Shown one piece after another: positions 1-9,453 of a stretch of 9,530 nucleotides of DNA. The stretch lies in the IMG/VR virus record IMGVR_UViG_2778261037_000010. One strand, given 5' to 3'. Made by a program: the position numbers and the translations under genes. The stretch comes from a virus (Duplodnaviria; Heunggongvirae; Uroviricota; Caudoviricetes). The notes under the pieces are model-generated. The model worked only from the letters and a program-made list of their open reading frames with translations. It was not told the origin of the DNA and did not search any database. Each line of letters opens with the position of its first letter. Positions within the stretch are counted from its first letter, which is position 1.

Positions 1-494
1 CCGAAATATCGATAACAGACGCTCTCTAGGGCATTGGGAGGGCGATTTAGTCTCAGGTACAAAAAACTCTCATATAGCCACACTTGTAGACCGAAAATCA
101 CGTTATACGATCATCCTCAGACTCAGGGGCAAAGATTCTGTCTCAGTAAATCAGGCTCTTACCGACAAATTCCTGAGTTTACCGTCAGAACTCAGAAAAT
201 CACTGACATGGGACAGAGGAATGGAACTGGCCAGACATCTAGAATTTACTGTCAGCACCGGCGTTAAAGTTTACTTCTGCGATCCTCAGAGTCCTTGGCA
301 GCGGGGAACAAATGAGAACACAAATGGGCTAATTCGGCAGTACTTTCCTAAAAAGACATGTCTTGCCCAATATACTCAACATGAACTAGATCTGGTTGCT
401 GCTCAGCTAAACAACAGACCGAGAAAGACACTGAAGTTCAAAACACCGAAAGAGATAATTGAAAGGGGTGTTGCATTGACAGATTGAATCTACA
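1..494 (+). mobile_element. IS30 insertion sequence, right-hand portion (window begins inside the element); right terminal inverted repeat ends at 494
   Basis: Seen: frame starting at position 2 is open to the TGA at 485-487 and translates to ...GHWEGDLVSGTKNSHIATLVDRKSRYTIILRL...YFCDPQSPWQRGTNENTNGLIRQYFPKK...RPRKTLKFKTPKEIIERGVALTD, which I recognise as the C-terminal DDE region of the IS30 transposase. The last bases (483-494, ATTGAATCTACA) are the reverse complement of TGTAGATTCAAT, which I recall as the IS30 terminal inverted repeat start. Established knowledge: IS30 family organisation. Exact end is an inference. Confidence 0.85.
2..487 (+). CDS. insI: IS30 transposase, 5'-truncated by the window edge (C-terminal ~161 codons present)
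   Basis: Continuous open frame from position 2 to stop at 485-487; protein motifs as above. The ORF track splits it only because it requires a Met (34..267 is off-frame, 221..487 is an internal Met of this frame). Confidence 0.9.
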   Translation, partial: RNIDNRRSLGHWEGDLVSGTKNSHIATLVDRKSRYTIILRLRGKDSVSVNQALTDKFLSLPSELRKSLTWDRGMELARHLEFTVSTGVKVYFCDPQSPWQRGTNENTNGLIRQYFPKKTCLAQYTQHELDLVAAQLNNRPRKTLKFKTPKEIIERGVALTD

Positions 495-918: not shown

Positions 919-2103
919 ATGAGTGAAACTCGTTTTCATGGTGCCCGTGTTACGGAAAGTACCGACCTGGTAACAGCGATTAATGATGTTGATTCCAGTG
1001 TTATCGGTATCGTGGCAACGGCAGATGATGCGGACGCGGAGCTGTTCCCGCTGAACAAGCCCACACTGCTGACCCGCGTCAATGACGTGCTGGGAAAATG
1101 CGGGACTACGGGGACGCTTTATCGTGCGCTTAAGGCTATCGCAGACCAGGTGAGCACAAAAGTGATCGTCGTTCGCGTGGCTGAACACAAAGAAGAAGGC
1201 GGTAAGACGCAGGATCAACTGGTTATCGGTGGTTCTGAATCTGACGGCAGCTATACGGGGATGTATGCGCTGCTTGTTGCAGAGCAGGATGAAAGCATCG
1301 GATACCGTCCGCGTATTCTGGCCGCGCCGGAGCTGGACACGGAGGCGGTAACAAAATCCCTGTGCGTGATTGCGGGTAAACTGCGCGCGTTTGTGTATGC
1401 CACATGTCATGGTTGTAACACGATGGCTGAGGCGATTACCTACCGCCAGAAATTCAACGAACGTGAGGTGATGCTCTTATGGCCTGACTTCATCGCCTAC
1501 AACCTGAAAAGTGGCAAAAACGAAACGTTCCCCGCGCCTGCTTATGCGTGCGGCCTTCGTGCGTACATTGACCATGAGCAGGGCTGGCACAAATCGCTGT
1601 CCAACGTTCCGGTTAAAAATGTGCTTGGGATGTCGAGGCATGTGTTCTGGTCGTTGCAGGCCGAAGACAGTGATGCCAACAGCCTCAACAACAAAGAAAT
1701 CACGACCATTATTCGTCGCAACGGGTTCCGCTTCTGGGGCAACCGCACACCGGAAACGAACGCCTACATCTTTGAGGTGTATACCCGAACCGCACAGGTG
1801 CTGGCTGATTCAATTGCGGAAGCGCAGTTTGAAACCATCGACAGTCCACTGACACCTGCGAACGTGAAGGATGTTATCAGTGCCATCAGGGCAAAACTGG
1901 ATTCACTGGTTACTGCCGGGAAACTGATTGGCGCGGAGTGCTGGTATGACATCGAGGATAACAGCACCACGAATTTACGTCAGGGGCGTGTGCGTATTCG
2001 CTACAAATATACGCCCGTTCCTCCGCTGGAAGACATGGAGCTTTACCAGTCGTTTACTGATGAATTCTTTGGTCCCGCATTTGCGGTGCTGGGAGGTGCC
2101 TGA
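919..2103 (+). CDS. FI: Contractile tail sheath protein (P2 gpFI family)
   Basis: 394-aa ORF; ATG 919 with AAGGGG 8 nt upstream. Length and C-terminal motif ...RYKYTPVPPLEDMELYQ... fit the P2 FI sheath family from memory. First gene of the conserved FI-FII-E-T-U order. Stop TGA overlaps the FII start (TGATG). Confidence 0.9.
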   Translation: MSETRFHGARVTESTDLVTAINDVDSSVIGIVATADDADAELFPLNKPTLLTRVNDVLGKCGTTGTLYRALKAIADQVSTKVIVVRVAEHKEEGGKTQDQLVIGGSESDGSYTGMYALLVAEQDESIGYRPRILAAPELDTEAVTKSLCVIAGKLRAFVYATCHGCNTMAEAITYRQKFNEREVMLLWPDFIAYNLKSGKNETFPAPAYACGLRAYIDHEQGWHKSLSNVPVKNVLGMSRHVFWSLQAEDSDANSLNNKEITTIIRRNGFRFWGNRTPETNAYIFEVYTRTAQVLADSIAEAQFETIDSPLTPANVKDVISAIRAKLDSLVTAGKLIGAECWYDIEDNSTTNLRQGRVRIRYKYTPVPPLEDMELYQSFTDEFFGPAFAVLGGA

Positions 2104-2615
2104 TGGCTGTACCAAAACATCTTCGCTTTTTTACGCTGTTTGTGGATGGTGAAAACGAAGTGGGTAAGGTGACGTCCGTCACCCTGCCTAAACTGACGCG
2201 CAAAACCGACAGCTACCGGGGTGGTGGCATGATGGGTGCGGTAAGTATTGACCTCGGCCTGGACGACTCCGCGCTTGATGCGAGCTTTGTCATGGGGGGC
2301 GCAGTTCGTGAGCTGTTCCTGAAGTATGGCGGCACGATTGACGGCACGCTACTGCGTTTTGCGGGGGAATACTACACCGATGATGAAAGCGACCTGTATG
2401 AAGTCGAAATGCGCGGACGTGTGACGGAAATTGATATGGGGGAAGCCAAACAGGGCGAAGCCACATCACACACTTACGCCATTAAAAACACCTACTACAA
2501 GCTGAGTGTTAACGATCGCCCGTTGTGGGAGATTGACCTGCTGAACTTCATTTACCGGAAGGACGGCAAGGACATTGTGCCCGATCGCATCCGTTCCGCG
2601 CTTGGGCTTGGCTGA
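2103..2615 (+). CDS. FII: Tail tube protein (P2 gpFII family)
   Basis: 170-aa ORF starting in the TGATG overlap with FI; GGGAGG 6 nt upstream; size and position directly after the sheath gene match P2 FII (about 170 aa). Confidence 0.9.
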   Translation: MAVPKHLRFFTLFVDGENEVGKVTSVTLPKLTRKTDSYRGGGMMGAVSIDLGLDDSALDASFVMGGAVRELFLKYGGTIDGTLLRFAGEYYTDDESDLYEVEMRGRVTEIDMGEAKQGEATSHTYAIKNTYYKLSVNDRPLWEIDLLNFIYRKDGKDIVPDRIRSALGLG

Positions 2616-2627
2616 TAAGTAATATGC

Positions 2628-2648
2628 AGGCGGCGCAGTGCGTCGCCT
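2628..2648 (+). other. GC-rich intercistronic hairpin between FII and E (9-bp stem AGGCGGCGC / GCGTCGCCT with one G-U pair, 3-nt loop), no U-tract
   Basis: Seen directly in sequence; function (partial attenuator or mRNA stability element) is inference. Confidence 0.4.
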
Positions 2649-2669
2649 CTGACTGAAAGGAGTTTCCTG

Positions 2670-3035
2670 ATGAAAGAGACGAAAAACATCGATACCGAAA
2701 ACACGGTAGTTACTGACACTGTGAAAGAAACCAGTGAGCGTGGTGTAAAACTTACCCAACCAATTGAGCGAGGCGGCGAAAAAATCACGTATGTGGAGAT
2801 CACCGGGGCTATTGAGCAGGCTGGATCTCTGCGAGATTTGTCGCTGTCTGATGTGCTGAATCTGAAAGCGGAATCCATGTTTACGCTGCTGTCACGCGTG
2901 ACATCACCGCGACTGGATGAAGTGACGATCAAAAAAATGGCATCCCGTGACTTTATTCAGTTATGTGTGGTTGCCGTAAATTTTTTGAGCGGTGCGGACT
3001 CTGGCGGGAAGAACGAACAGGCGACGGAAGCCTGA
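2670..3035 (+). CDS. E: Tail assembly chaperone gpE (zero-frame product)
   Basis: 121-aa ORF, ATG 2670 with GAAAGGAG 8 nt upstream; located between tube and tape measure genes as in P2; contains the slippery heptamer near its 3' end. Confidence 0.85.
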   Translation: MKETKNIDTENTVVTDTVKETSERGVKLTQPIERGGEKITYVEITGAIEQAGSLRDLSLSDVLNLKAESMFTLLSRVTSPRLDEVTIKKMASRDFIQLCVVAVNFLSGADSGGKNEQATEA

Positions 3036-3199
3036 TCACGGTTGTGTGCTTTGAGCACATAGAAGACTTTGTGGCAGATATTGCCGTTATTTTTAACTGG
3101 TCGCCCGCCGAAATCTTCATGATGACGCCCGGCGAAGTGGTTAGCTGGCGTGAGCGGGCGGCACTTCGCAGCGGGAATGCAGACAATGAAGACTCTTGA
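2670..3199 (+). CDS. E+E': gpE+E' fusion produced by programmed -1 translational frameshift at 2981-2987 (frame of E to 2987, then -1 frame to stop at 3197-3199)
   Basis: Seen: T TTT TTG heptamer at 2981-2987 in the E frame; the -1 frame is open from there to 3199 (ORF-track protein ...FFERCGLWREERTGDGS...). Established knowledge: P2 and relatives make E and E+E' through a -1 shift on a TTTTTTG site, analogous to lambda G/GT. Confidence 0.7.
2981..2987 (+). promoter_or_regulatory. -1 ribosomal frameshift slippery site TTTTTTG
   Basis: Exact heptamer in the correct codon phase (T TTT TTG) for tandem tRNA slippage; downstream -1 frame open for ~70 codons. Confidence 0.7.
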
Positions 3200-5276
3200 T
3201 ATCCGGGTCGCTTTCAGCGCCGTTGACAGGCTGACCCGACCTGCCGAAAACGCACGCCGCCTGATGGGGCAGTTTGGTGACTCCATCCAGCGAACGCAGG
3301 GGGCGATCAAAAATCTCGAGCGTCAGGCGCGATCATTTGAGCGCGCCCGCGACGCTGTCAGTAAAGCGGATGCTGGCATCGTGAAAGCACGACGCCAGCT
3401 TAACGCCCTTAATCAGTTACAACGCACGGGTACAGTGCTCAGCGAAAAACAACAAAAGCTGATGCAGCAGTTAAGCACCCGGCTTGAACGCCTGAATGAA
3501 TCGCGCACACGGGAAATTCAGAAAATGAGGGAACTTGGCGGAGAGCTGAAACGCCACGGCATTTCCCTGACAGGCAGCGATAACACCATTCAGCAGGCCA
3601 TCAGACGCACCGAACAATACAACAACCAGCTTGAACGCGAACGGCAGGCGCTTGCGCGTGTAACGCAGGCGCGTGAGCGGTATTCGCACGCGCAGGAAAC
3701 CGCGGGAAAACTGAAAACAGGTGGTGCGCTGGCAATTGGTGCGGCAGCGGCGGGCGGCTATGCTGCCGGGCGTTTTTTGCAGCCTGCGATCGGGTTCGGC
3801 AAAGAGATGTCCCGCGTTCAGGCACTGACGCGAATCGACAAAAACAGCCCGCAGTTTAAGGCGCTGCGTGAGCAGGCGTTAAAACTTGCTGAAACACAGT
3901 TTACTGCGAGTGATGCCGCCAGTGGGCAGAGCTTTCTGGCAATGGCTGGTTTTACTCCGCAGGCCATTCAGGCCGCATTGCCCGGTGTTCTTAATATGGC
4001 GCTGGCAGGTGGCGTCGAACTCGGCGAGACGGCTGATATAGGCTCCAATATCCTCACACAGTTCAACCTGACAGCCGATCAAATGGACCGGGTGGGCGAT
4101 ACGCTGACAGCAGCATTTACCCGGACCAATACTGATTTACGCGCGCTGGGCGAAACCATGAAGTATACCGGTCCGGTTGCCGCAAAACTTGGTATCAGTC
4201 TTGAAGAAGCGGCGGCCATGGCCGGGATGCTTGCCAATAATGGTCTTCGCGGAAGCGATGCTGGCACGGCCATGCGCGCAAGTCTGTCCCGCCTTGCATC
4301 ACCGCCAAAAGCTGCGGCTGATGCACTGAAAGAGCTGGGGGTGTCAGTTGCTGACGCCAGAGGCAAAATGCGCCCGATGGAGGATGTGCTGCTTGATCTC
4401 TATAAGGCGACACAAAAATACGGACAGGTGGACCAGGTCTCCTTCTTCAAGGACATCGCCGGAGAAGAGGCGTTCGTTGGTTTGCAGACGCTTGTTGCGG
4501 CGGCTGGTTCAGGAGAGCTGCAAAAACTGACCAGAGAATTGCAGGGGGCAAGGGGAGAGGCCGATCGCGTCGCAAAAGTAATGGCTGATAATCTTGATGG
4601 GGACCTGAAAAATCTCGACAGCGCATGGGAAGGTCTTCGTATTCGCATCAGTGATCTGGTTGACGGTCCGCTGCGTTCTGTCACGCAGTGGCTCACGCGG
4701 GTGCTTGAAAAAATCACCTCGCTGGCGCAGGCCCATCCGGTACTGACGCGCCAGCTACTGATAGCAGGCGGTGCGTTGCTGGCAATGACTGCAACGATTG
4801 GCTCGTTGTCGCTGGTTATTGGGGTGCTTTACGGGAAGCTGGCCACCCTGCGTCTTGGTTTTGACATTCTTACCCGGTCAATGAATGTCGTCAGGGTGTT
4901 ACCTGCGCTATGGGGAATGGTGACGGGTTCCGTTTCTTTACTGGGAGGCGTTATCGGGGCGTTGTTCAGTCCGGTTGGTCTTATCGTGGCTGCGCTTGCC
5001 GGAGCTGCCGTTCTTATCTGGAAATACTGGGATCCTATCAGGGCTTTCTTTGCCGGGGTGTTCAGCGGGATTATGGAAAGGCTGACCCCGTTGCGCGACA
5101 CCTTTGAACGGTTTGGCCCTGTTTTTGACGTAATCGGAAGCGGTTCAGCCAGGTGTTTAACTGGTTTAAATCGCTGCTGTCACCGATGGAGTCCAGCAAG
5201 GAAACGCTGGATAAATGTACCAGTGCTGGCGAGGTATTCGGTAACGTTCTTGGTGGTGCGTTACAGCTTGTTCTGA
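3186..5276 (+). CDS. T: Tail tape measure protein gpT, upstream reading frame (frame is lost near 5144; see findings). Start uncertain: ATG 3186 preferred, alternatives ATG 3177 and GTG 3150
   Basis: Long ORF directly after E/E'; coiled-coil-like N-terminal half rich in Q/R/E/L/A, Gly/Ala-rich and hydrophobic stretches (…LLIAGGALLAMTATIGSLSLVIGVLYG…) typical of tape measure proteins. Start 3186 overlaps the end of E'. Confidence 0.85.
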   Translation: MKTLDIRVAFSAVDRLTRPAENARRLMGQFGDSIQRTQGAIKNLERQARSFERARDAVSKADAGIVKARRQLNALNQLQRTGTVLSEKQQKLMQQLSTRLERLNESRTREIQKMRELGGELKRHGISLTGSDNTIQQAIRRTEQYNNQLERERQALARVTQARERYSHAQETAGKLKTGGALAIGAAAAGGYAAGRFLQPAIGFGKEMSRVQALTRIDKNSPQFKALREQALKLAETQFTASDAASGQSFLAMAGFTPQAIQAALPGVLNMALAGGVELGETADIGSNILTQFNLTADQMDRVGDTLTAAFTRTNTDLRALGETMKYTGPVAAKLGISLEEAAAMAGMLANNGLRGSDAGTAMRASLSRLASPPKAAADALKELGVSVADARGKMRPMEDVLLDLYKATQKYGQVDQVSFFKDIAGEEAFVGLQTLVAAAGSGELQKLTRELQGARGEADRVAKVMADNLDGDLKNLDSAWEGLRIRISDLVDGPLRSVTQWLTRVLEKITSLAQAHPVLTRQLLIAGGALLAMTATIGSLSLVIGVLYGKLATLRLGFDILTRSMNVVRVLPALWGMVTGSVSLLGGVIGALFSPVGLIVAALAGAAVLIWKYWDPIRAFFAGVFSGIMERLTPLRDTFERFGPVFDVIGSGSARCLTGLNRCCHRWSPARKRWINVPVLARYSVTFLVVRYSLF

Positions 5277-5989
5277 CGCCTGCAAAAATGTTGCTGGATA
5301 CGCTGGCGTGGATACTTGAAAAACTCGGTGTGCTTCCGGATGAAGCGGAAAGGGCGCGCAAGAAAATCGAAGACGCACAACGTGCGGCCATTCTTCAGGA
5401 CAAGGTTGCTCTGTTTCAGGGAGACATTGCGAAAATCAATCCGCCGAAGTCTGCGGGAAATAGCAATGGCACCGGAGATGATAAACCCAAAGACAACAAA
5501 CCTCTCACAGACAGCAATACCGGCACGCTACGCAGACTCAGCAAAATTGCTGATAACACAGGTAAGCTGGTTGATGAGACAAAAAAACGCATTGGCCCCG
5601 GCGATATTGTCTTTAAGAACCTGCCCCGCGCACTTGCTGTTCGTGGGGAGTGGCAGGAGCGGAAGATTGCGCAGGTCAGTAAGCCTGCCCCCGCAATTAA
5701 TATCACACCCGTGGTCCCGGCTCCGCTGCCTCCGGCGCTGGTCCCTGTTGTTGCGGCCAGCTCCCGCCCGGTGGTGGAGGCCATACGATCGCCAGTGGCA
5801 TCAGTTCCTGCAACTTCCCGTAACCGGGAGCCTGTTGCCTCCGGATTTGGCGGTGAAATTCATGTTCATCTGCATAACGTTGTTACGCAGAATCCCCGCG
5901 AACTGGCGAAACTGGTCGGCGAAATGGTCAGGGCAGAAATGGAACGGCGCGCCCGTGCCAGGCGTGGCAGTTTTTACGATAAAGATTGA
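5153..5989 (+). CDS. T: Tail tape measure protein gpT, downstream reading frame (C-terminal ~280 codons, in the -1 frame relative to the upstream part)
   Basis: Frame open from 5129 to TGA 5987-5989; translation ...FSQVFNWFKSLLSPMESSKETL...GGEIHVHLHNVVTQNPRELAKLVGEMV... continues tape-measure-like sequence and ends immediately before U, as expected for the 3' end of T. Confidence 0.8.
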   Translation: MFNWFKSLLSPMESSKETLDKCTSAGEVFGNVLGGALQLVLTPAKMLLDTLAWILEKLGVLPDEAERARKKIEDAQRAAILQDKVALFQGDIAKINPPKSAGNSNGTGDDKPKDNKPLTDSNTGTLRRLSKIADNTGKLVDETKKRIGPGDIVFKNLPRALAVRGEWQERKIAQVSKPAPAINITPVVPAPLPPALVPVVAASSRPVVEAIRSPVASVPATSRNREPVASGFGGEIHVHLHNVVTQNPRELAKLVGEMVRAEMERRARARRGSFYDKD

Positions 5990-5995
5990 GGAGTC

Positions 5996-6490
5996 ATGGC
6001 CATGATGATGATCTACGGCATGTTTGTTTTTGAGCTGCGCACGTTGCCGCATCAGCAGTTACAGCAAAACAAAAGCTGGCGACATGTGAAAAATGAACGC
6101 GTTAACCGTTCAGCAAGCTGGCAGTATATCGGTGCAGGTGATGATCGCATCGTTCTTTCTGGTGTTCTTTATCCTGAGATTACTGGTGGCGAAGTGTCGC
6201 TGTCGTTGTTGACCACGCAGGCATATACAGGACGTCCTTGGCCTTTGATTGATGGCGTCGGGCAGATTTACGGCATGTATGTCCTGACCGGAACGAATAC
6301 GACCCGCTCCGAGTTTGATCGCTACGGTAAGGCGAAAAAGATAGAATTTTCACTGACTCTTGAACGCTGTGATGAGGATTTGCGGGAGCGCCTGCAATCC
6401 TCATCGTTCAGCGATATGCTGTCCGGCTTCAAAGATAAGGTGACATCATCCCTTAATAGCGCGGCCAGCTCAGTTAAGGGGCTGCTCTGA
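5996..6490 (+). CDS. U: Tail protein gpU (P2 U family)
   Basis: 164-aa ORF following T; N-terminus MAMMMIYGMFVFELRT... and ...YPEITGG...WPLIDG... motifs fit the P2 gpU family as I recall it. GAGGAG at 5988-5993 favours the ATG at 6002 (8 nt spacing) over 5996, so the true start may be 6002. Confidence 0.85.
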   Translation: MAMMMIYGMFVFELRTLPHQQLQQNKSWRHVKNERVNRSASWQYIGAGDDRIVLSGVLYPEITGGEVSLSLLTTQAYTGRPWPLIDGVGQIYGMYVLTGTNTTRSEFDRYGKAKKIEFSLTLERCDEDLRERLQSSSFSDMLSGFKDKVTSSLNSAASSVKGLL

Positions 6491-6566
6491 TTTAACGTAT
6501 GTCGCCAATTTCCTGATGAAGGTGACTGGCGACTTGCTGTTGTATGTCCTTCTCAGAAAATTGTTT

Positions 6567-6595
6567 TTGAATAACAAATAACAGGATTTTATAAT
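6567..6595 (+). promoter_or_regulatory. Putative sigma70 promoter for the acetyltransferase moron: TTGAAT (6567-6572), 17-nt spacer, TATAAT (6590-6595)
   Basis: Seen: near-consensus -35 and perfect -10 hexamers with 17-bp spacing, ~50 bp upstream of the moron start codon in an AT-rich region. Prediction only. Confidence 0.5.
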
Positions 6596-6646
6596 CTCTT
6601 AACCTTATAACATGTGTGGTCTGAAATAATAATTAAGGAGATTATC

Positions 6647-7219
6647 GTGCTATCTTACTTAATGGCAATTCACTTTGTTTTATTTGGAAACTCTACTAAT
6701 TTAAAAAACTTCTGGAAACATGAAGTAATTCGGCGGAAACGTATGGATATCTGGAGGCTTTTAAGAGAGAAAAAGCAGCGTAACCGGAATTTCCTTTTCT
6801 GGTGGCGGTTGGCTAACGAAATGTATATTAATGGTAATAAATTACATAAGAAAGCAGCCAAAAAGTTAAACAGTAAAATAATTAACAAGTTTGGTTGTGA
6901 AATAGGATTGGGCGCAAATATTGGAAAAGGGTTGACAATTCCCCATCATGCTGGAATTGTTGTTCATTTTGCTGTTGATGCGGGTGAAAATCTGGTATTA
7001 CGACAGAATACTACCATTGGACAGATAGATGGTGATATGCCTAGTTCAAGAGTAAAAATTGGTAGTAACGTTGATATCGGAGCTAATTGTTGCATCATTG
7101 GATTATCACGTAAAATTGGGGATAATGTAAAAATAGGTGCAATGTCTTTTATAAATAAAGATATACCATCAAACTGCACATATATAACTAAAAAGAGTGG
7201 TGTTGTATTGTATAAATAG
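6647..7219 (+). CDS. Hexapeptide-repeat (left-handed beta-helix) acetyltransferase, serine acetyltransferase-like CysE/WcaB/NeuO family; AT-rich moron
   Basis: Seen: GTG 6647 with AAGGAG 6 nt upstream (the ORF track starts at an upstream GTG 6614; ATG 6662 is a further alternative). Protein has imperfect hexapeptide repeats (GCEIGLGANIGKGLTIPHHAGIVV, VKIGSNVDIGANCCIIG, IGDNVKIGAMSFINKD) after a basic N-terminal region, the pattern of CysE/WcaB-type O-acetyltransferases. Composition is clearly more AT-rich than the flanking tail genes. Confidence 0.75.
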   Translation: MLSYLMAIHFVLFGNSTNLKNFWKHEVIRRKRMDIWRLLREKKQRNRNFLFWWRLANEMYINGNKLHKKAAKKLNSKIINKFGCEIGLGANIGKGLTIPHHAGIVVHFAVDAGENLVLRQNTTIGQIDGDMPSSRVKIGSNVDIGANCCIIGLSRKIGDNVKIGAMSFINKDIPSNCTYITKKSGVVLYK

Positions 7220-7228
7220 AGTACATAA

Positions 7229-7267
7229 AGCCATCGATATTTCTGTCGATGGCTTTTTCTTTTTATT
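7229..7267 (+). terminator. Rho-independent terminator (stem AGCCATCGA / TCGATGGCT, 8-nt loop, then TTTTTCTTTTTATT); probably serves the convergent tfa gene as well
   Basis: Seen: perfect 9-bp stem at 7229-7237 and 7246-7254 followed by a T-run. It lies between the convergent ends of the acetyltransferase gene (7219) and tfa (stop 7263-7265). Confidence 0.7.
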
Positions 7268-7841
7268 GTGGGGCGACTGGCCACTCAACATCCGCTGCTA
7301 CTGTTGTATCAACACGATTCAACAATACCCGATATGTCTTCCATGCAGCCAGTAACGATGCCTCTTCCTCCGTCGCAATATCCAAATCTACGGCATCCTG
7401 AAGTGGCGCAATATGCTCACTGGCTACCTGCATCAGGCTGTTTTTTGTTTCTTCTGCCTCCCGTACCCGAAACAGTTTTTCTGCTTCTGCATCTTTCGCC
7501 CAGGATGTGCCGTTCCACTTCTGACACTCTCCATCCGGCGACAACCAGGTAACATTTTCCGGTAACGGACCGAGTTCAGAAATAAATAACGCGTCGCCGG
7601 AAGCCACGTCATAAACCGTTTTACCCCGATGATCTTCAACGAGATGCCACGATGACTCATCACTGTTGAAAACAGCCACGAAGCCAGCCGGAATATCTGG
7701 CGGTGCAATATAGGTACTGTTTGCTGGCAGACCTGTATGAGGCGGAATATATGCGTCACCTTCACCAATAAATTCATTAGTTCCGGTCAGCAGATTATAA
7801 ATTTTTATGGTCCGTGGTTGTTCACTCATTCTGAATGCCAT
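7263..7841 (-). CDS. tfa: Tail fibre assembly protein (lambda Tfa / P2 gpG family)
   Basis: 192-aa minus-strand ORF; N-terminus [42 protein letters not shown]... is the lambda-Tfa-type sequence I recognise. Its ATG overlaps the stop of the upstream fibre gene (TAATG), typical translational coupling. Confidence 0.9.
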
Positions 7842-9453
7842 TATGCAAGCCTCACAATGTAGTTAAATGCGATGTTTTTGACAGTGTTTTCCGCGTTACC
7901 CGCAGCGTTAACGGTGATGGTGTGTCCATGTGAGCCAATCGCAACAGAGTGCGTATGAGCACCAATACCGACAGTATGTGCGTGAGCACCTGCAGATGCA
8001 GCTGTGCCGCTGACACTATGAGTGTGCGCTCCTGCAGCACTTGTATTCACACTGGCCGCAGACACTACCTTATGTACTGACCCATTTTGTGACCACTGGC
8101 TGACTGCTGATGCGCCTGTGACACTATGAGTATGGTTTCCGGCACTTGCGGCTGTACCGCTCACACTGTGCGTGTGCGCCCCGGTGTTATTCGTGGATTT
8201 AGTGCCGTAATCAAACGACGATGTGGTTTTCGTCCCCAAATCCGTACTGGATGCGCTGGCGCTGTGGGTGTGCGATTTAATGCCGTCCTGTTCCTGAGAC
8301 AATACGGCCCGACCACTGGCAGGTTTGCCCTTAATCGTCCAGCCACGCATATCAGGGATCACGCCTGACGGATAAGCGGCTGCAAGTTTCGGGTATGCAG
8401 ATTTGTCAAAAGTCTGCCCCTGCATCAGGGCATAGCCAGACGGAACGGTATCTGATGGCCACGGGATTGGTGCGCCAGGCGGATAAAACTGCTCTGATGG
8501 CGTATAGAGTGAATAAACTGTACCGTCCGTTAACCCTTCCGGCTTATTAGCAGAATATGCTGGTGACGTATGAATCGTCACGCTGGCATTACTGGTATAA
8601 TCCCATTGAATATTTACACCAGTCGCATAATTTCCGATTGCAACGTAAATATCGTAAGTATCACCAGATGTATTGACCCAGGCAAAATTTGTAAACCCTG
8701 TCGATGTGCGCTGCCATAAAGCACCAGTAATCCCCTTCGGATTACCATTACCTGCACGCAAAACAAGTTCAGATATACCTGCCTGTTGAGGTGACCCCAC
8801 GTTAAATCCCGCGCCACCAATCAACGTAATTGAAACAACAGAACTCGCCTGTGGCATGGTTACCGTTGCTAATTTGAACCAACCAGCACCACCGCTGAAT
8901 GACATTGTTGTTGAGTTAAGCGTACCAATATCTTTCGGCGTCAGTGTTATATCCGATGAAAGCGCCTTACCATTCACCTTACGGGCAGAAGGTACCCGAC
9001 CATTCGCATTATCATTAGCTGCTTTCACTGCTTTCGGTGTCGCGGCAAGCGTTTCAGATGCGCTGTTGGTTGCACTACTGAGCTGGACAATTCCTTTTTG
9101 TGCTGTCGTAGCGTCCTGAGCAGTATATTTCCCGTTAGCAAGGTCATAGGCTGCCTTTACCGACTTTGGCGTTGCCGCCAGCATTTCAGATGTGCTGTTG
9201 GTCGCGTTGCTAAGCTGAACTATCCCTTTCTGTGCTGTCGTTGCATCCTGTGCGGTGTATTTCCCGTTAGCCAGCTCATACGCGGCCTTAACGGCTTTTG
9301 GCGTTGCCGCCAGTGACTCGGAAGTGCTGTTAGTCGCACTGCTGAGCTGTACTATCCCCTTTTTCGTCGTGCTCGCATCCTCAAGCGCCACGGCGGATGC
9401 AATATCCTCTGCCCGTTTTGCCGCTGTCTCAGCGCGCGTTGCTGCAGATTCCG
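7841..9453 (-). pseudogene. stf: Side tail fibre protein (lambda Stf-like C-terminal part; P2 gpH equivalent), 5'-truncated by an IS3-family insertion at 9453/9454
   Basis: Seen: minus-strand frame open from the IS junction to TAA at 7843..7841; no plausible start (the ORF-track 'M' at 9391 is a GTG; the frame has an in-frame stop at 9481..9479 inside the IS end). Protein contains three tandem ~44-aa fibre repeats (…[32 protein letters not shown]…), His-rich HTHS repeats and the ending …[19 protein letters not shown], which match lambda Stf-type fibre C-termini as I recall them. Confidence 0.85.
8999..9391 (-). repeat. Three imperfect tandem copies of a ~132-bp unit inside the tail fibre gene (encode the 44-aa fibre repeat)
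   Basis: Seen at DNA level (e.g. ...TATTTCCCGTTAGC... recurring at 9126 and 9258; third copy about 8999-9124) and at protein level with period 44 aa. Confidence 0.8.

What the first reader, a model, noticed from the sequence alone, without database searches (positions are those of the whole stretch)
6491..7267. AT-rich single-gene moron: a hexapeptide-repeat acetyltransferase with its own promoter and terminator in the tail-fibre/sheath accessory hotspot
Between U and tfa lies a compact cassette: a near-consensus sigma70 promoter (TTGAAT-17-TATAAT, 6567-6595), a strong RBS, a ~190-codon LbH acetyltransferase gene (6647-7219) and a perfect 9-bp-stem intrinsic terminator (7229-7267). Its base composition is clearly AT-rich against the GC-balanced tail genes, indicating horizontal acquisition and expression independent of the late operon, probably in the lysogen. 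The junction between the fibre genes and FI is the Z/fun position in P2, which I recall as a recognised hotspot for accessory and anti-phage genes in P2-like prophages. Prophage-borne LbH acetyltransferases such as NeuO of the K1 CUS-3 prophage O-acetylate surface polysaccharides. This gene is therefore a candidate for lysogenic conversion or superinfection exclusion via glycan O-acetylation, or for an uncharacterised single-gene defence function.
Basis: partly seen in the sequence, partly recalled or inferred. Interest (0 to 1): 0.7.

Follow-up and report, generated by a model that had tools for sequence, protein, structure and literature searches.

The report
Tail-fibre-linked acetyltransferase moron in prophage
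A small, AT-rich gene with its own promoter and terminator sits beside the tail-fibre genes of a decaying P2-like prophage of E. coli O157; databases call it a serine acetyltransferase, but it more likely acetylates a cell-surface sugar, probably in the lipopolysaccharide core that such phages use as receptor.

Summary
Promoter (6567-6595), RBS, a 190-codon left-handed beta-helix (LbH) acetyltransferase gene (6647-7219) and a strong terminator (7227-7267) are all present. The cassette has 34% GC against 50-57% in the tail genes.

The window is the defective Sp13/CP-933T-type prophage, a P88/Xuanwuvirus relative. Its FI-U operon is inverted relative to P2, so the cassette lies between U and tfa.

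The gene is not a recent isolated insertion. It travels with the fibre-tip/tfa module in P2-like, P1-like and other myovirus prophages. In P1-like plasmids it lies inside the invertible C segment. A convergent tfa follows it in 68 of 80 viral contigs. Alleles show dN/dS of about 0.1.

It has the serine-acetyltransferase fold and catalytic dyad but lacks the serine-binding residues and fails all curated family cut-offs.

Homologues sit in LPS-core (waa) clusters or next to prophage GT25, GT9-like and HtrL genes. Two related phages were shown experimentally to bind the LPS core.

Best model, inferred rather than shown: a lysogen-expressed LPS-core O-acetyltransferase that alters phage adsorption. 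There is no evidence for a defence system. No functional study of the family was found.

The parts
6497..6566 (+). Left junction of the cassette. It lies downstream of the U stop codon and contains a hairpin (about 6500-6533) without a proper T tract, which may be a leaky stop for the FI-U operon.
   Evidence: P88 homology ends at 6496 and L008 homology starts at 6565. The fold of 6460-6560 gives dG -34.9 kcal/mol, z = -2.76.
6567..6595 (+). Sigma-70-type promoter-like site: TTGAAT, 17 nt, TATAAT.
   Evidence: It is conserved in the L007, L009, L106 and L109 alleles and weaker in L008 (TTAAAT / TACACT). Transcription was not tested.
6635..6640 (+). Shine-Dalgarno sequence AAGGAG, 6 nt before the GTG start.
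   Evidence: It is invariant in six aligned loci.
6647..7219 (+). Gene for a 190-aa serine-acetyltransferase-like LbH acetyltransferase (PHROG 2154; RefSeq WP_000954203.1 'serine O-acetyltransferase').
   Evidence: The start codon is supported. dN/dS is 0.07-0.14.
7227..7267 (+). Intrinsic terminator shared with the convergent tfa gene. It is strong for the acetyltransferase transcript and weak in the tfa direction.
   Evidence: It is conserved in L106 and JL22.
7263..7841 (-). Tail fibre assembly gene (tfa, Caudo_TAP), convergent with the acetyltransferase gene. It belongs to the co-transferred module.
   Evidence: PF02413, E = 6.4e-40. Linkage is shown.
7841..8476 (-). 3' part of tail-fibre gene H, encoding the C-terminal tip. 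It is co-transferred with tfa and the acetyltransferase gene between phage types; 7979-8197 is a variable insert.
   Evidence: 7841-7978 and 8198-8476 (or to 8930) are 90-97% identical in P1-like and other myovirus loci. Collar and fibre repeats are seen.

Best explanation
The cassette is a self-contained moron (promoter, RBS, gene, terminator). It encodes a soluble, very basic, cytoplasmic LbH acetyltransferase with the serine-acetyltransferase fold, and it is not a serine acetyltransferase.

It belongs to a conserved three-part module (fibre tip, Tfa chaperone, acetyltransferase) that moves between temperate contractile-tail phages.

The most likely mechanism has four steps, all inferred:
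1. The gene is transcribed from its own sigma-70 promoter in the lysogen, independently of the late operon.
2. The enzyme uses acetyl-CoA and the conserved His100/Glu85 dyad to O-acetylate a sugar.
3. The target is a sugar of the lipopolysaccharide core oligosaccharide while that core is being built on the cytoplasmic face of the inner membrane.
4. The modified core changes the receptor that P2-, P1- and Mu-type fibres recognise. This would give adsorption blocking (superinfection exclusion, or less loss of progeny on debris) and a changed surface epitope.

Shown here: the anatomy, the fold, the conserved catalytic dyad, loss of the serine-binding residues, purifying selection, linkage to tfa and fibre genes, and association of homologues with LPS-core genes.

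Inferred: transcription in the lysogen, the substrate, and the phenotype.
For: **Anatomy and foreign composition.**

**Fold and active site.**
- The model has pLDDT 95.4, with five N-terminal helices followed by the LbH domain.
- The best PDB neighbours are serine acetyltransferases, TM-score 0.72-0.76 on the query.
- In the HMMER alignment to solved serine acetyltransferases, Glu85 aligns with their Asp143 and His100 with their His158. The positions of Asp157, Arg192 and His193 are Pro, Ser and Arg.
- His100 is nearly invariant in 47 family members.
- No 19-residue window reaches a Kyte-Doolittle hydropathy above 1.1, so no transmembrane segment is predicted. There are 31 K+R against 12 D+E.

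**Selection.** dN/dS is 0.07-0.14 between alleles. The gene is intact in a prophage that has lost D to an IS30 insertion and carries a frameshift in T.

**Linkage to the fibre module.**
- The same block (acetyltransferase gene + tfa + fibre tip, 90-93% nucleotide identity) is found in Xuanwuvirus-type prophages, in P1-like plasmids and in a third myovirus prophage.
- In JL22 it lies between the 602-nt inverted repeats of the invertible C segment.
- 68 of 80 IMG/VR contigs have a convergent tfa 16-87 nt downstream (1424 nt in one contig). This includes 8 of 9 alleles at 60-85% identity and 3 of 9 assessable alleles below 60%.
- Acetyltransferase and Tfa identities fall together: 90/92, 71/84, 65/45 and 45/38 %.
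- Phages phiNP (44%) and Hafnia yong2 (35%) have the same convergent arrangement.

**LPS-core association.**
- Xenorhabdus prophage: acetyltransferase, GT25, then a convergent fibre gene.
- Morganella prophage: acetyltransferase, a GT9 heptosyltransferase-like gene, then a convergent fibre gene.
- IMG/VR L182: acetyltransferase, then convergent HtrL_YibB, Tfa and fibre genes.
- Leminorella grimontii waa cluster: GT4, GT8, WaaY, WaaZ (402 bits), acetyltransferase, WaaL.
- Halomonas: WaaZ (223 bits) next to the acetyltransferase.
- Pseudomonas: WaaP-family kinases and a GT2 next to it.

**Receptor evidence from experiment.** phiNP, which carries a family member, needs core GlcII. The P88-like phage PhiSM needs outer-core GlcIII (PMC6456863).
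Against: - There are no experimental data on this protein or any family member.
- Many homologues are singletons with no glycan genes nearby: Pantoea, Erwinia and Citrobacter chromosomes, the EPEC EAF plasmid, a Salmonella island, and prophage ends.
- The tfa/fibre-tip type is present in 4709 of 5426 E. coli genomes, but the acetyltransferase in only 530. It is therefore an optional rider, not an obligate partner.
- Physical linkage could reflect a convenient insertion point behind a terminator rather than a functional tie.
- From memory, published E. coli core structures do not list O-acetyl groups. The usual de-O-acylation step in such analyses would remove them.
- The promoter is a consensus match only.
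Confidence: 0.45

Rival explanations
1. One reading: the enzyme O-acetylates the O-antigen repeat unit or a capsule (NeuO-like or WbbJ-like), causing serotype-type lysogenic conversion.
For: It belongs to the same enzyme superfamily as NeuO, WbbJ and WcaB, although the matches to these are weak. Prophage-borne glycan acetylation is well known. In Pseudomonas L029, O-antigen-type genes (assigned from their N-terminal sequences, not profile-tested) lie a few kb downstream.
Against: - The same allele (97-100% identity) occurs in strains labelled O157, O55, O111 and O84, whose O units, from memory, are unrelated.
- None of the neighbours examined was an O-antigen polymerase, flippase or capsule gene. 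The glycan neighbours that were profile-tested are core-type: GT9, GT25, HtrL, WaaZ, WaaY and WaaL.
- From memory, the published O157 repeat unit carries no O-acetyl group, although every O157:H7 genome listed has this gene.
- There is no 5' tandem repeat of the kind that makes NeuO phase-variable.
Confidence: 0.15
2. The enzyme acetylates some other substrate, such as a small molecule, a xenobiotic or antibiotic, a signalling nucleotide or a protein. It would then act as a detoxification, resistance, defence or counter-defence gene.
For: The gene occurs singly on many kinds of mobile element: prophage ends, an island next to an integrase, the EAF plasmid, and next to hicAB or hok. LbH enzymes include xenobiotic and sugar-detoxifying acetyltransferases, and there are weak matches to Maa and LacA.
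Against: - No PADLOC model matches.
- The best sequence and fold neighbours are the serine-acetyltransferase, EpsC and WcaB group, not CatB/Vat-type enzymes.
- This reading does not explain the repeated adjacency to LPS-core genes and tail-fibre genes.
Confidence: 0.17
3. The database annotation is right: it is a serine O-acetyltransferase (CysE-like) that boosts cysteine synthesis as an auxiliary metabolic gene.
For: RefSeq, GenBank and the phage records all name it so. The fold and the catalytic dyad match serine acetyltransferase.
Against: - TIGR01172 cysE scores 62 bits against a cut-off of 210.65, and PRK11132 scores 36.6 against 397.
- The residues at the positions of Asp157, Arg192 and His193 are not conserved.
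- The N-terminal domain is much shorter than in E. coli CysE: 190 aa in all, against 273 aa listed for CysE.
- The C-terminus ends ...VLYK, not with the CysK-binding tail ending in Ile (the motif itself is from memory).
Confidence: 0.03
4. It serves the virion or the infection process, for example by modifying something needed for fibre assembly or function. That would explain why it stays with tfa and the fibre tip.
For: Linkage to tfa is tight and ancient. In P1-like plasmids the gene lies inside the invertible fibre segment, downstream of and co-oriented with the alternative fibre gene and its chaperone.
Against: - It is always convergent with the expressed tfa and has its own promoter and terminator.
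- It is missing from most phages that carry the same tfa type (530 against 4709 genomes) and from P88, so fibres assemble without it.
- It is kept intact in a prophage that can no longer make tails.
Confidence: 0.07
5. It is a functionless hitch-hiker that survives only because it sits between two selected genes.
For: The prophage in the window is decaying. No phenotype is known.
Against: dN/dS is 0.07-0.14 over dS up to about 1.9. The ORF is intact in alleles from 35% to 100% identity in several genera. The promoter and RBS are conserved.
Confidence: 0.03

Closest known systems
NeuO, the polysialic-acid O-acetyltransferase of the K1 prophage CUS-3
   Same: It is a prophage-borne, cytoplasmic, acetyl-CoA-dependent LbH enzyme carried as accessory cargo and acting on a surface glycan (PMC3046976, listed).
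   Different: It belongs to a different LbH subfamily: NeuD/NnaD scores 30.7 bits against a cut-off of 160.8. The window gene has no phase-variable 5' repeat. It is not tied to a capsule type, and its relatives sit with LPS-core genes rather than sialic-acid genes.
Serine O-acetyltransferase CysE (EC 2.3.1.30)
   Same: It is the best fold match, with a helical N-terminal domain followed by an LbH domain. The Asp/Glu-His catalytic dyad aligns.
   Different: The window protein fails the curated cut-offs, lacks the serine-binding residues, has a truncated N-terminal domain, has no CysK-binding tail, and is encoded in a phage fibre module.
WcaB / EpsC-type exopolysaccharide O-acetyltransferases (serine-acetyltransferase-like LbH)
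   Same: Similar size, and the closest named sequence families: EpsC 76 bits, WcaB 54-56 bits. These are soluble enzymes that acetylate sugars during cytoplasmic glycan assembly.
   Different: The scores are far below the cut-offs of 150 and 194-196. The gene is not in a wca or eps cluster. The N-terminal FLFWWRLANEMY motif is specific to this family.
Serotype-converting phage enzymes Oac (Sf6) and GtrABC
   Same: They share the proposed biological role: a temperate phage changes the host surface glycan and thereby blocks adsorption of related phages (reviewed in PMC13123978).
   Different: From memory, Oac and Gtr are integral membrane proteins acting on O-antigen at or beyond the inner membrane, and their genes sit next to int/att. 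The window enzyme has no predicted membrane segment, sits next to the fibre genes, and points to the core rather than the O-antigen.
Receptor-blocking genes linked to receptor-binding genes (T5 llp next to pb5; cor next to the tail genes of phi80/N15-type phages). Recalled from memory.
   Same: The logic is the same: a gene that masks the receptor is inherited together with the gene that recognises it.
   Different: Those are lipoproteins that block the protein receptor FhuA. Here the masking would be enzymatic modification of a glycan. The functional link is inferred, not shown.
P2 Z/fun variable locus
   Same: It is an accessory slot just downstream of the fibre-assembly gene G/tfa. A 67% allele sits in the true G-FI slot in P2-order contigs. 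The locus is known as a mixed hotspot with fibre swaps and invertases.
   Different: In the window the neighbouring operon is inverted, so the slot is bounded by U rather than FI. From memory, Z/fun itself blocks T5 and is unrelated in sequence.

Membership tests
Left-handed beta-helix (hexapeptide-repeat) acyltransferase superfamily | Hexapeptide repeats forming an LbH domain | tested here: met
   Pfam Hexapep is below its gathering score (24.4 bits against 27). The AlphaFold model (pLDDT 95.4) matches LbH serine-acetyltransferase structures at probability 1.0, TM-score 0.72-0.76.
Left-handed beta-helix (hexapeptide-repeat) acyltransferase superfamily | Catalytic histidine at the subunit interface | tested here: met
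   His100 aligns with the catalytic His158 of serine acetyltransferase and is nearly invariant in 47 family members. Trimer formation was not tested.
Serine O-acetyltransferase CysE | Score at or above the curated equivalog cut-off | tested here: not met
   TIGR01172 scores 62.4 bits against 210.65. PRK11132 scores 36.6 against 397.
Serine O-acetyltransferase CysE | Serine-binding residues (E. coli Asp157, Arg192, His193) | tested here: not met
   The HMMER alignments to solved serine acetyltransferases place Pro, Ser and Arg at these positions. Residue roles are from published structures, recalled from memory.
Serine O-acetyltransferase CysE | Enzymatic activity on L-serine, or complementation of a cysE mutant | not testable with these tools
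   This needs an enzyme assay or a genetic complementation test.
Colanic acid acetyltransferase WcaB | Curated cut-off, and location in the wca cluster | tested here: not met
   Scores are 55.8 and 54.4 bits against cut-offs of 196 and 194.65. The gene lies in a prophage fibre module.
NeuO/NeuD sialate O-acetyltransferases | Subfamily profile score, and for NeuO a phase-variable 5' heptanucleotide repeat | tested here: not met
   NeuD_NnaD scores 30.7 bits against 160.8. No tandem repeat is present in 6400-7400.
Moron (independent accessory transcription unit in a prophage) | Own promoter and terminator, deviating composition, and absence from close relatives | tested here: met
   The promoter-like site is conserved between alleles. 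The terminator has z = -4.96. GC3 is 0.29 against 0.56-0.62 in FI, FII, T and U. The cassette is absent from P88, where an invertase and a second fibre set fill the slot. Actual transcription was not tested.
P2 Z/fun-slot cargo | Located between G (tfa) and FI | tested here: inconclusive
   In the window the slot is tfa-U because the FI-U operon is inverted, which is the layout of this genus. The 67% allele in L176 lies exactly between tfa and the sheath gene, antisense to both.
Known anti-phage defence systems (PADLOC-DB 2.0) | Match to any defence-protein model | tested here: not met
   No families matched at E <= 1.
Phage serotype-converting O-acetyltransferases of the Oac type (acyltransferase-3) | Multi-pass membrane acyltransferase-3 domain | tested here: not met
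   There is no acyltransferase-3 hit. The maximum 19-residue hydropathy is 1.1, so no membrane segment is predicted.
LPS-core modifying enzymes (waa-cluster accessory genes) | Encoded in or beside core-biosynthesis genes | tested here: inconclusive
   Met for homologues: Leminorella WaaY-WaaZ-acetyltransferase-WaaL, Halomonas WaaZ-acetyltransferase, Pseudomonas WaaP-type kinases, and prophage GT25, GT9-like and HtrL neighbours. Not met for the window gene itself, and many homologues are singletons.
LPS-core modifying enzymes (waa-cluster accessory genes) | Demonstrated acetyl group on a core sugar that depends on the gene | not testable with these tools
   This needs MS or NMR of intact LPS from isogenic strains.

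The most novel reading that the evidence does not exclude
The acetyltransferase is the third member of an ancient, portable 'recognise-and-mask' module: fibre tip, Tfa chaperone and acetyltransferase. The enzyme acetylates the LPS-core sugar that the co-inherited fibre tip binds. Any phage that acquires a new receptor specificity by fibre swapping therefore also acquires the matching superinfection block.

Two observations would be signatures of this coupling. The mosaic replacement of the central, acceptor-binding part of the gene between conserved flanks would track receptor specificity. The gene also sits inside the invertible fibre segment of P1-like plasmids.

This would be the first LbH-type LPS-core O-acetyltransferase and the first enzymatic counterpart of the cor/llp principle.
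Probability: 0.25. Interest if true: 0.7.

Novelty: new member of a known kind. Interest (0 to 1): 0.5.

Why it matters
- **Prevalence.** The gene is present in every listed E. coli O157:H7 genome and in about 10% of complete E. coli genomes (530 of 5426). It is also found on P1-like phage-plasmids and in phages of Citrobacter and Hafnia.
- **Annotation.** It is annotated everywhere as a cysteine-biosynthesis enzyme, which the sequence evidence contradicts.
- **If it acetylates the LPS core.** It would be an overlooked determinant of phage host range. This matters for phage therapy and biocontrol of STEC, and for P1/P2/Mu-type adsorption assays. It could also affect LPS antigenicity. It would add an enzymatic case to the rule that receptor-masking genes travel with receptor-binding genes.
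- **Testability.** One plasmid, a His100Ala control, mass spectrometry of intact LPS and spot assays would suffice.

Tried and rejected
1. **Remnant of an invertible segment in the window.** The stretch 6550-6575 looked hix/cix-like by eye. The inverted-repeat search found only one 20-nt, 85% pair (6507-6526 / 7755-7774), which is at chance level, and nothing comparable to the 602-nt repeats of JL22 or the 65-nt repeats of P88. Rejected for the window. The invertible-segment location holds only for P1-like plasmids.
2. **Obligate pairing with one tfa type.** Rejected: the tfa/tip type is in 4709 genomes and the acetyltransferase in 530.
3. **Defence-system membership.** No PADLOC hit.
4. **Literature.** Ten searches found no functional work. 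The Gifsy defence gene gipd474 is an ATPase and is unrelated. The search on locus tags Z2984-Z2986 returned only noise.
5. **Protein evidence for expression.** The supplement of the O157 proteome paper lists some CP-933T proteins (Z2969, Z2987, Z2991) but not this one. The stored file is truncated, so this is uninformative.
6. **Structured RNA in the 5' UTR.** The fold of 6596-6660 is no better than shuffles (z = 0.02). Rfam finds nothing in the cassette.
7. **Limits of the context statistics.**
   - The IMG/VR set is redundant: 44 of 80 contigs carry alleles at least 95% identical to the window's. Counts are therefore also given by identity band.
   - The Tfa profile was built from six sequences.
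   - Neighbour genes come from a simple longest-ORF caller.
Full report
**What the window is**

The 9.5-kb window is the tail region of a P2-like prophage of the E. coli O157/O55 lineage (Sp13/CP-933T type). The gene order is as follows:

| Coordinates | Strand | Feature |
|---|---|---|
| 1-487 | + | End of an IS30 element, which truncates gene D |
| about 438-761 | - | Gene D remnant |
| 919-2103 | + | FI (tail sheath) |
| 2103-2615 | + | FII (tail tube) |
| 2670-3035 | + | E |
| 3150 to about 5989 | + | Tape-measure gene T |
| 5996-6490 | + | U |
| 6647-7219 | + | Acetyltransferase cassette gene |
| 7263-7841 | - | tfa |
| 7841-9391 and beyond | - | Fibre gene H |

- T is 100% identical to the EDL933 copy. 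It carries a 1-nt deletion near 5142 relative to the intact gene of strain 493/89, so it is frameshifted.
- The prophage therefore cannot make tails. It has lost D and T function.
- Relative to P2, the FI-U operon is inverted. The same layout is seen at another chromosomal site in an unrelated strain and in phage P88, genus Xuanwuvirus. It is a lineage trait, not a local accident.

**Check of the observation**

- TTGAAT-17-TATAAT lies at 6567-6595, AAGGAG at 6635-6640 and GTG at 6647.
- A hairpin at 7227-7256 is followed by a T tract. Its dG is -20.9 kcal/mol, z = -4.96, and none of 200 shuffles folds as well. In the tfa direction the same hairpin has only a weak U tract.
- The CDS has GC 0.34 and GC3 0.29. 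FI, FII, T and U have GC 0.50-0.57 and GC3 0.56-0.62.
- The promoter match is not significant on its own: 4 sites found against 4.8 expected. Its weight comes from conservation. In the L106/L109 allele the promoter, RBS and start codon are kept at 93-97% identity while the centre of the gene is only 45-80% identical.
- JL22 has ATG at the position of the window's GTG and no ATG at the next in-frame candidate. This fixes the start at 6647.
- Homology to P88 ends at 6496, right after U. In P88 the slot holds a DNA invertase and a second fibre/tfa set instead. The cassette is therefore exchangeable cargo.

**What the protein is**

- Pfam gives only sub-threshold hexapeptide hits.
- NCBIfam ranks EpsC, CysE and WcaB first, all far below their cut-offs.
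- PHROG 2154, of unknown function, matches at 2.9e-87. PADLOC gives nothing.
- The AlphaFold model is confident (pLDDT 95.4). It shows five N-terminal helices followed by a left-handed beta-helix. Its best PDB neighbours are serine acetyltransferases.
- In the alignments to solved serine acetyltransferases, Glu85 and His100 take the places of the catalytic Asp143 and His158. The positions of the serine-binding Asp157, Arg192 and His193 are Pro, Ser and Arg.
- The protein has no predicted membrane segment and is strongly basic.
- In short, it has the serine-acetyltransferase fold and chemistry but not the serine-acetyltransferase substrate site. The database name 'serine O-acetyltransferase' is most likely wrong.
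- A 47-member alignment shows a family-specific FLFWWRLANEMY helix and RQNTTIG and IGDNVDIGAN motifs.

**Distribution and selection**

- The gene is in 530 of 5426 complete E. coli genomes, with 66 copies on plasmids.
- Relatives occur in Salmonella, Citrobacter, Buttiauxella, Enterobacter, Xenorhabdus, Morganella, Pantoea, Pseudomonas, Orbaceae and others.
- Pairwise dN/dS between alleles is 0.07-0.14, with dS up to about 1.9. The protein is under purifying selection.

**Linkage to the fibre module**

- BLAST shows one block, window 6648-7978 plus 8198-8476 (or to 8930). It comprises the acetyltransferase gene, tfa and the fibre tip. At 90-93% identity it is shared by Xuanwuvirus-type prophages, P1-like phage-plasmids (JL22, Ro157c2YLVW, pEC5502-2) and a third myovirus prophage.
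- In JL22, 602-nt inverted repeats enclose S', U', the acetyltransferase gene, tfa and Sv. The gene therefore lies inside the invertible C segment.
- A 71% allele sits in the same U-tfa slot of related prophages.
- A 67% allele sits in the canonical P2 slot between tfa and FI, antisense to the late genes.
- Phages phiNP (44%) and Hafnia yong2 (35%) again have the acetyltransferase gene convergent with tfa and a collar-type fibre gene.
- Of 80 IMG/VR contigs with a homologue, 68 have a convergent tfa 16-87 nt downstream (1424 nt in one contig), 5 end too early and 7 lack it. By identity band the counts are 42 of 42 assessable at 95% or more, 15 of 15 at 85-95%, 8 of 9 at 60-85%, and 3 of 9 below 60%.
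- Acetyltransferase and Tfa identities decline together, as expected for an old, co-inherited pair.
- The reverse does not hold. This tfa type is almost universal in E. coli (4709 genomes), so the acetyltransferase is an optional rider.

**Clues to the substrate**

Where family members have glycan genes as neighbours, the ones that were profile-tested are LPS-core genes.
- Xenorhabdus prophage: acetyltransferase and GT25 facing the fibre gene.
- Morganella prophage: acetyltransferase and a GT9 heptosyltransferase-like gene facing the fibre gene.
- An IMG/VR prophage: an HtrL_YibB gene lies between the acetyltransferase gene and the tfa/fibre genes.
- Leminorella grimontii: the homologue lies inside the waa cluster, between WaaZ and WaaL and after GT4, GT8 and WaaY.
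- Halomonas: it follows WaaZ.
- A Pseudomonas genome: it follows WaaP-family kinases and a GT2.

Two experimental results fit this. phiNP, which carries a family member, requires core GlcII. The P88-like phage PhiSM requires outer-core GlcIII (PMC6456863).

The window allele occurs in strains labelled O157, O55, O111 and O84. This argues against an O-unit-specific enzyme.

Against the core hypothesis, many homologues are isolated single genes: on chromosomes, on the EPEC EAF plasmid, beside an integrase, or at prophage ends. There is also no biochemical evidence at all.

**Mechanism proposed**

*Shown:* an independent cassette, a fold with an acyltransferase dyad and no serine site, purifying selection, long-term linkage to the receptor-binding module, and association of relatives with core-assembly genes.

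*Inferred:*
- transcription from the sigma-70 promoter in the lysogen, possibly with some read-through from U, whose downstream hairpin lacks a T tract;
- acetyl-CoA-dependent O-acetylation of a core sugar on the cytoplasmic face of the inner membrane, where core kinases and glycosyltransferases act;
- a consequent change in adsorption of core-binding phages and in surface antigenicity.

I put 0.45 on this full statement and about 0.6-0.7 on the broader claim that it acetylates some envelope glycan. Rivals and their refutation tests are listed separately.

**Comparison with what is known**

- It works like prophage glycan-modifying conversion genes (NeuO, Oac, Gtr). By the tested criteria it is a member of none of these families.
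- It fails membership of CysE, WcaB and NeuD/NeuO.
- It fits the definition of a moron.
- It is cargo of the fibre-adjacent variable slot known in P2 as Z/fun. The iLund4u preprint describes that locus as a mixed hotspot with fibre swaps and invertases.
- The anti-phage hotspot of Rousset et al. is a different locus.
- The only paper found that comments on the gene, the JL22 paper, calls its presence unexplained.

**Verdict**

- This is a new, uncharacterised and probably mis-annotated member of a known kind: a prophage surface-glycan acetyltransferase moron.
- Its additional feature, not reported in the papers searched here, is stable linkage to the tail-fibre tip/tfa module across several myovirus lineages.
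- Interest is moderate (0.5). The idea is not surprising in principle, but the gene is widespread, includes all listed O157:H7 genomes, and can be tested cheaply.

Noticed in passing
window 1-487 and 438-893: The end of an IS30 element (transposase C-terminus, + strand) abuts and truncates the late-control/tail gene D (minus strand; the real start is probably near 761). The 157-bp gap between the D and FI starts is a divergent intergenic region that must carry the late promoters in this inverted layout.
   Followed up: partly
window 3150-5989 (indel near 5142): Tape-measure gene T is split into two ORFs by a 1-nt deletion relative to the intact gene of O157 strain 493/89. The sequence is 100% identical to the frameshifted EDL933 copy. 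With the broken D gene, this makes the prophage defective while the acetyltransferase gene stays intact.
   Followed up: yes
window 919-6490 versus 7263-9391; L005, L006: The FI-FII-E-T-U operon is inverted relative to the P2 gene order, so it converges on the fibre genes and diverges from D-ogr. The same layout is seen in phage P88 and at a different chromosomal site in another strain. It is a lineage (Xuanwuvirus) trait.
   Followed up: yes
L004 19854-20756; L005 21361-22263 (absent from the window at 7841): The nearest relatives carry a 300-aa macro-domain gene (ADP-ribose-binding/hydrolase type, weak matches) inserted between fibre gene H and tfa. In the window, H abuts tfa directly. This is a second piece of exchangeable cargo in the same region and a possible counter-defence gene.
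   Followed up: partly
window 7300-7498, minus strand: Rfam family IS009 (RF02111) matches at 191 bits, above its gathering score of 117, entirely inside the tfa coding sequence. The 'RNA family' here coincides with a conserved piece of a prophage tfa gene.
   Followed up: no
window 6725-7110 versus L106 5079-5464: Allelic mosaic. In the 71% allele the promoter, the 5' end (to about 6700) and the 3' end plus terminator (from about 7115) are 93-100% identical to the window. The central part, which holds the helical domain and most LbH coils, is only 45-80% identical in most 30-nt windows (one window falls to 20%). This suggests recombinational replacement of the substrate-facing part between conserved flanks.
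   Followed up: partly
L002 (JL22) 5401-6002 and 10263-10864: In P1-like phage-plasmids, 602-nt inverted repeats (99% complementary) flank a segment holding S', U', the acetyltransferase gene, tfa and Sv. The acetyltransferase gene therefore flips with the invertible C segment. A different, 490-bp AT-rich upstream region replaces the window's promoter there.
   Followed up: partly
L027 5132-6519 (Leminorella); L036 5001-6384 (Halomonas): A WaaZ (Kdo III transferase) gene lies immediately upstream of the acetyltransferase homologue in two distantly related genera, scoring 402 and 223 bits against a cut-off of 200. This hints at a specific tie to the inner-core/Kdo region.
   Followed up: partly
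L017-L020 (about 5001-5594): A 50%-identical family member sits on EPEC EAF-type virulence plasmids, just downstream of the bundle-forming-pilus genes and near an IpaB/EvcA-family (TrcA-like) gene.
   Followed up: no
L106-L108 5617-6605: In the 71%-allele prophages, a truncated tfa remnant (87 aa) and a class I SAM-methyltransferase gene lie between the acetyltransferase gene and the functional tfa. This is further accessory cargo in the same slot.
   Followed up: no
window 9000-9391: Fibre gene H contains internal direct repeats (three Phage_fiber_2 units, with self-similar segments around 9012-9381) and a histidine-rich GxHxH repeat region near its C-terminus. The stretch 7979-8197 has no counterpart in the otherwise homologous fibre tips.
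   Followed up: no
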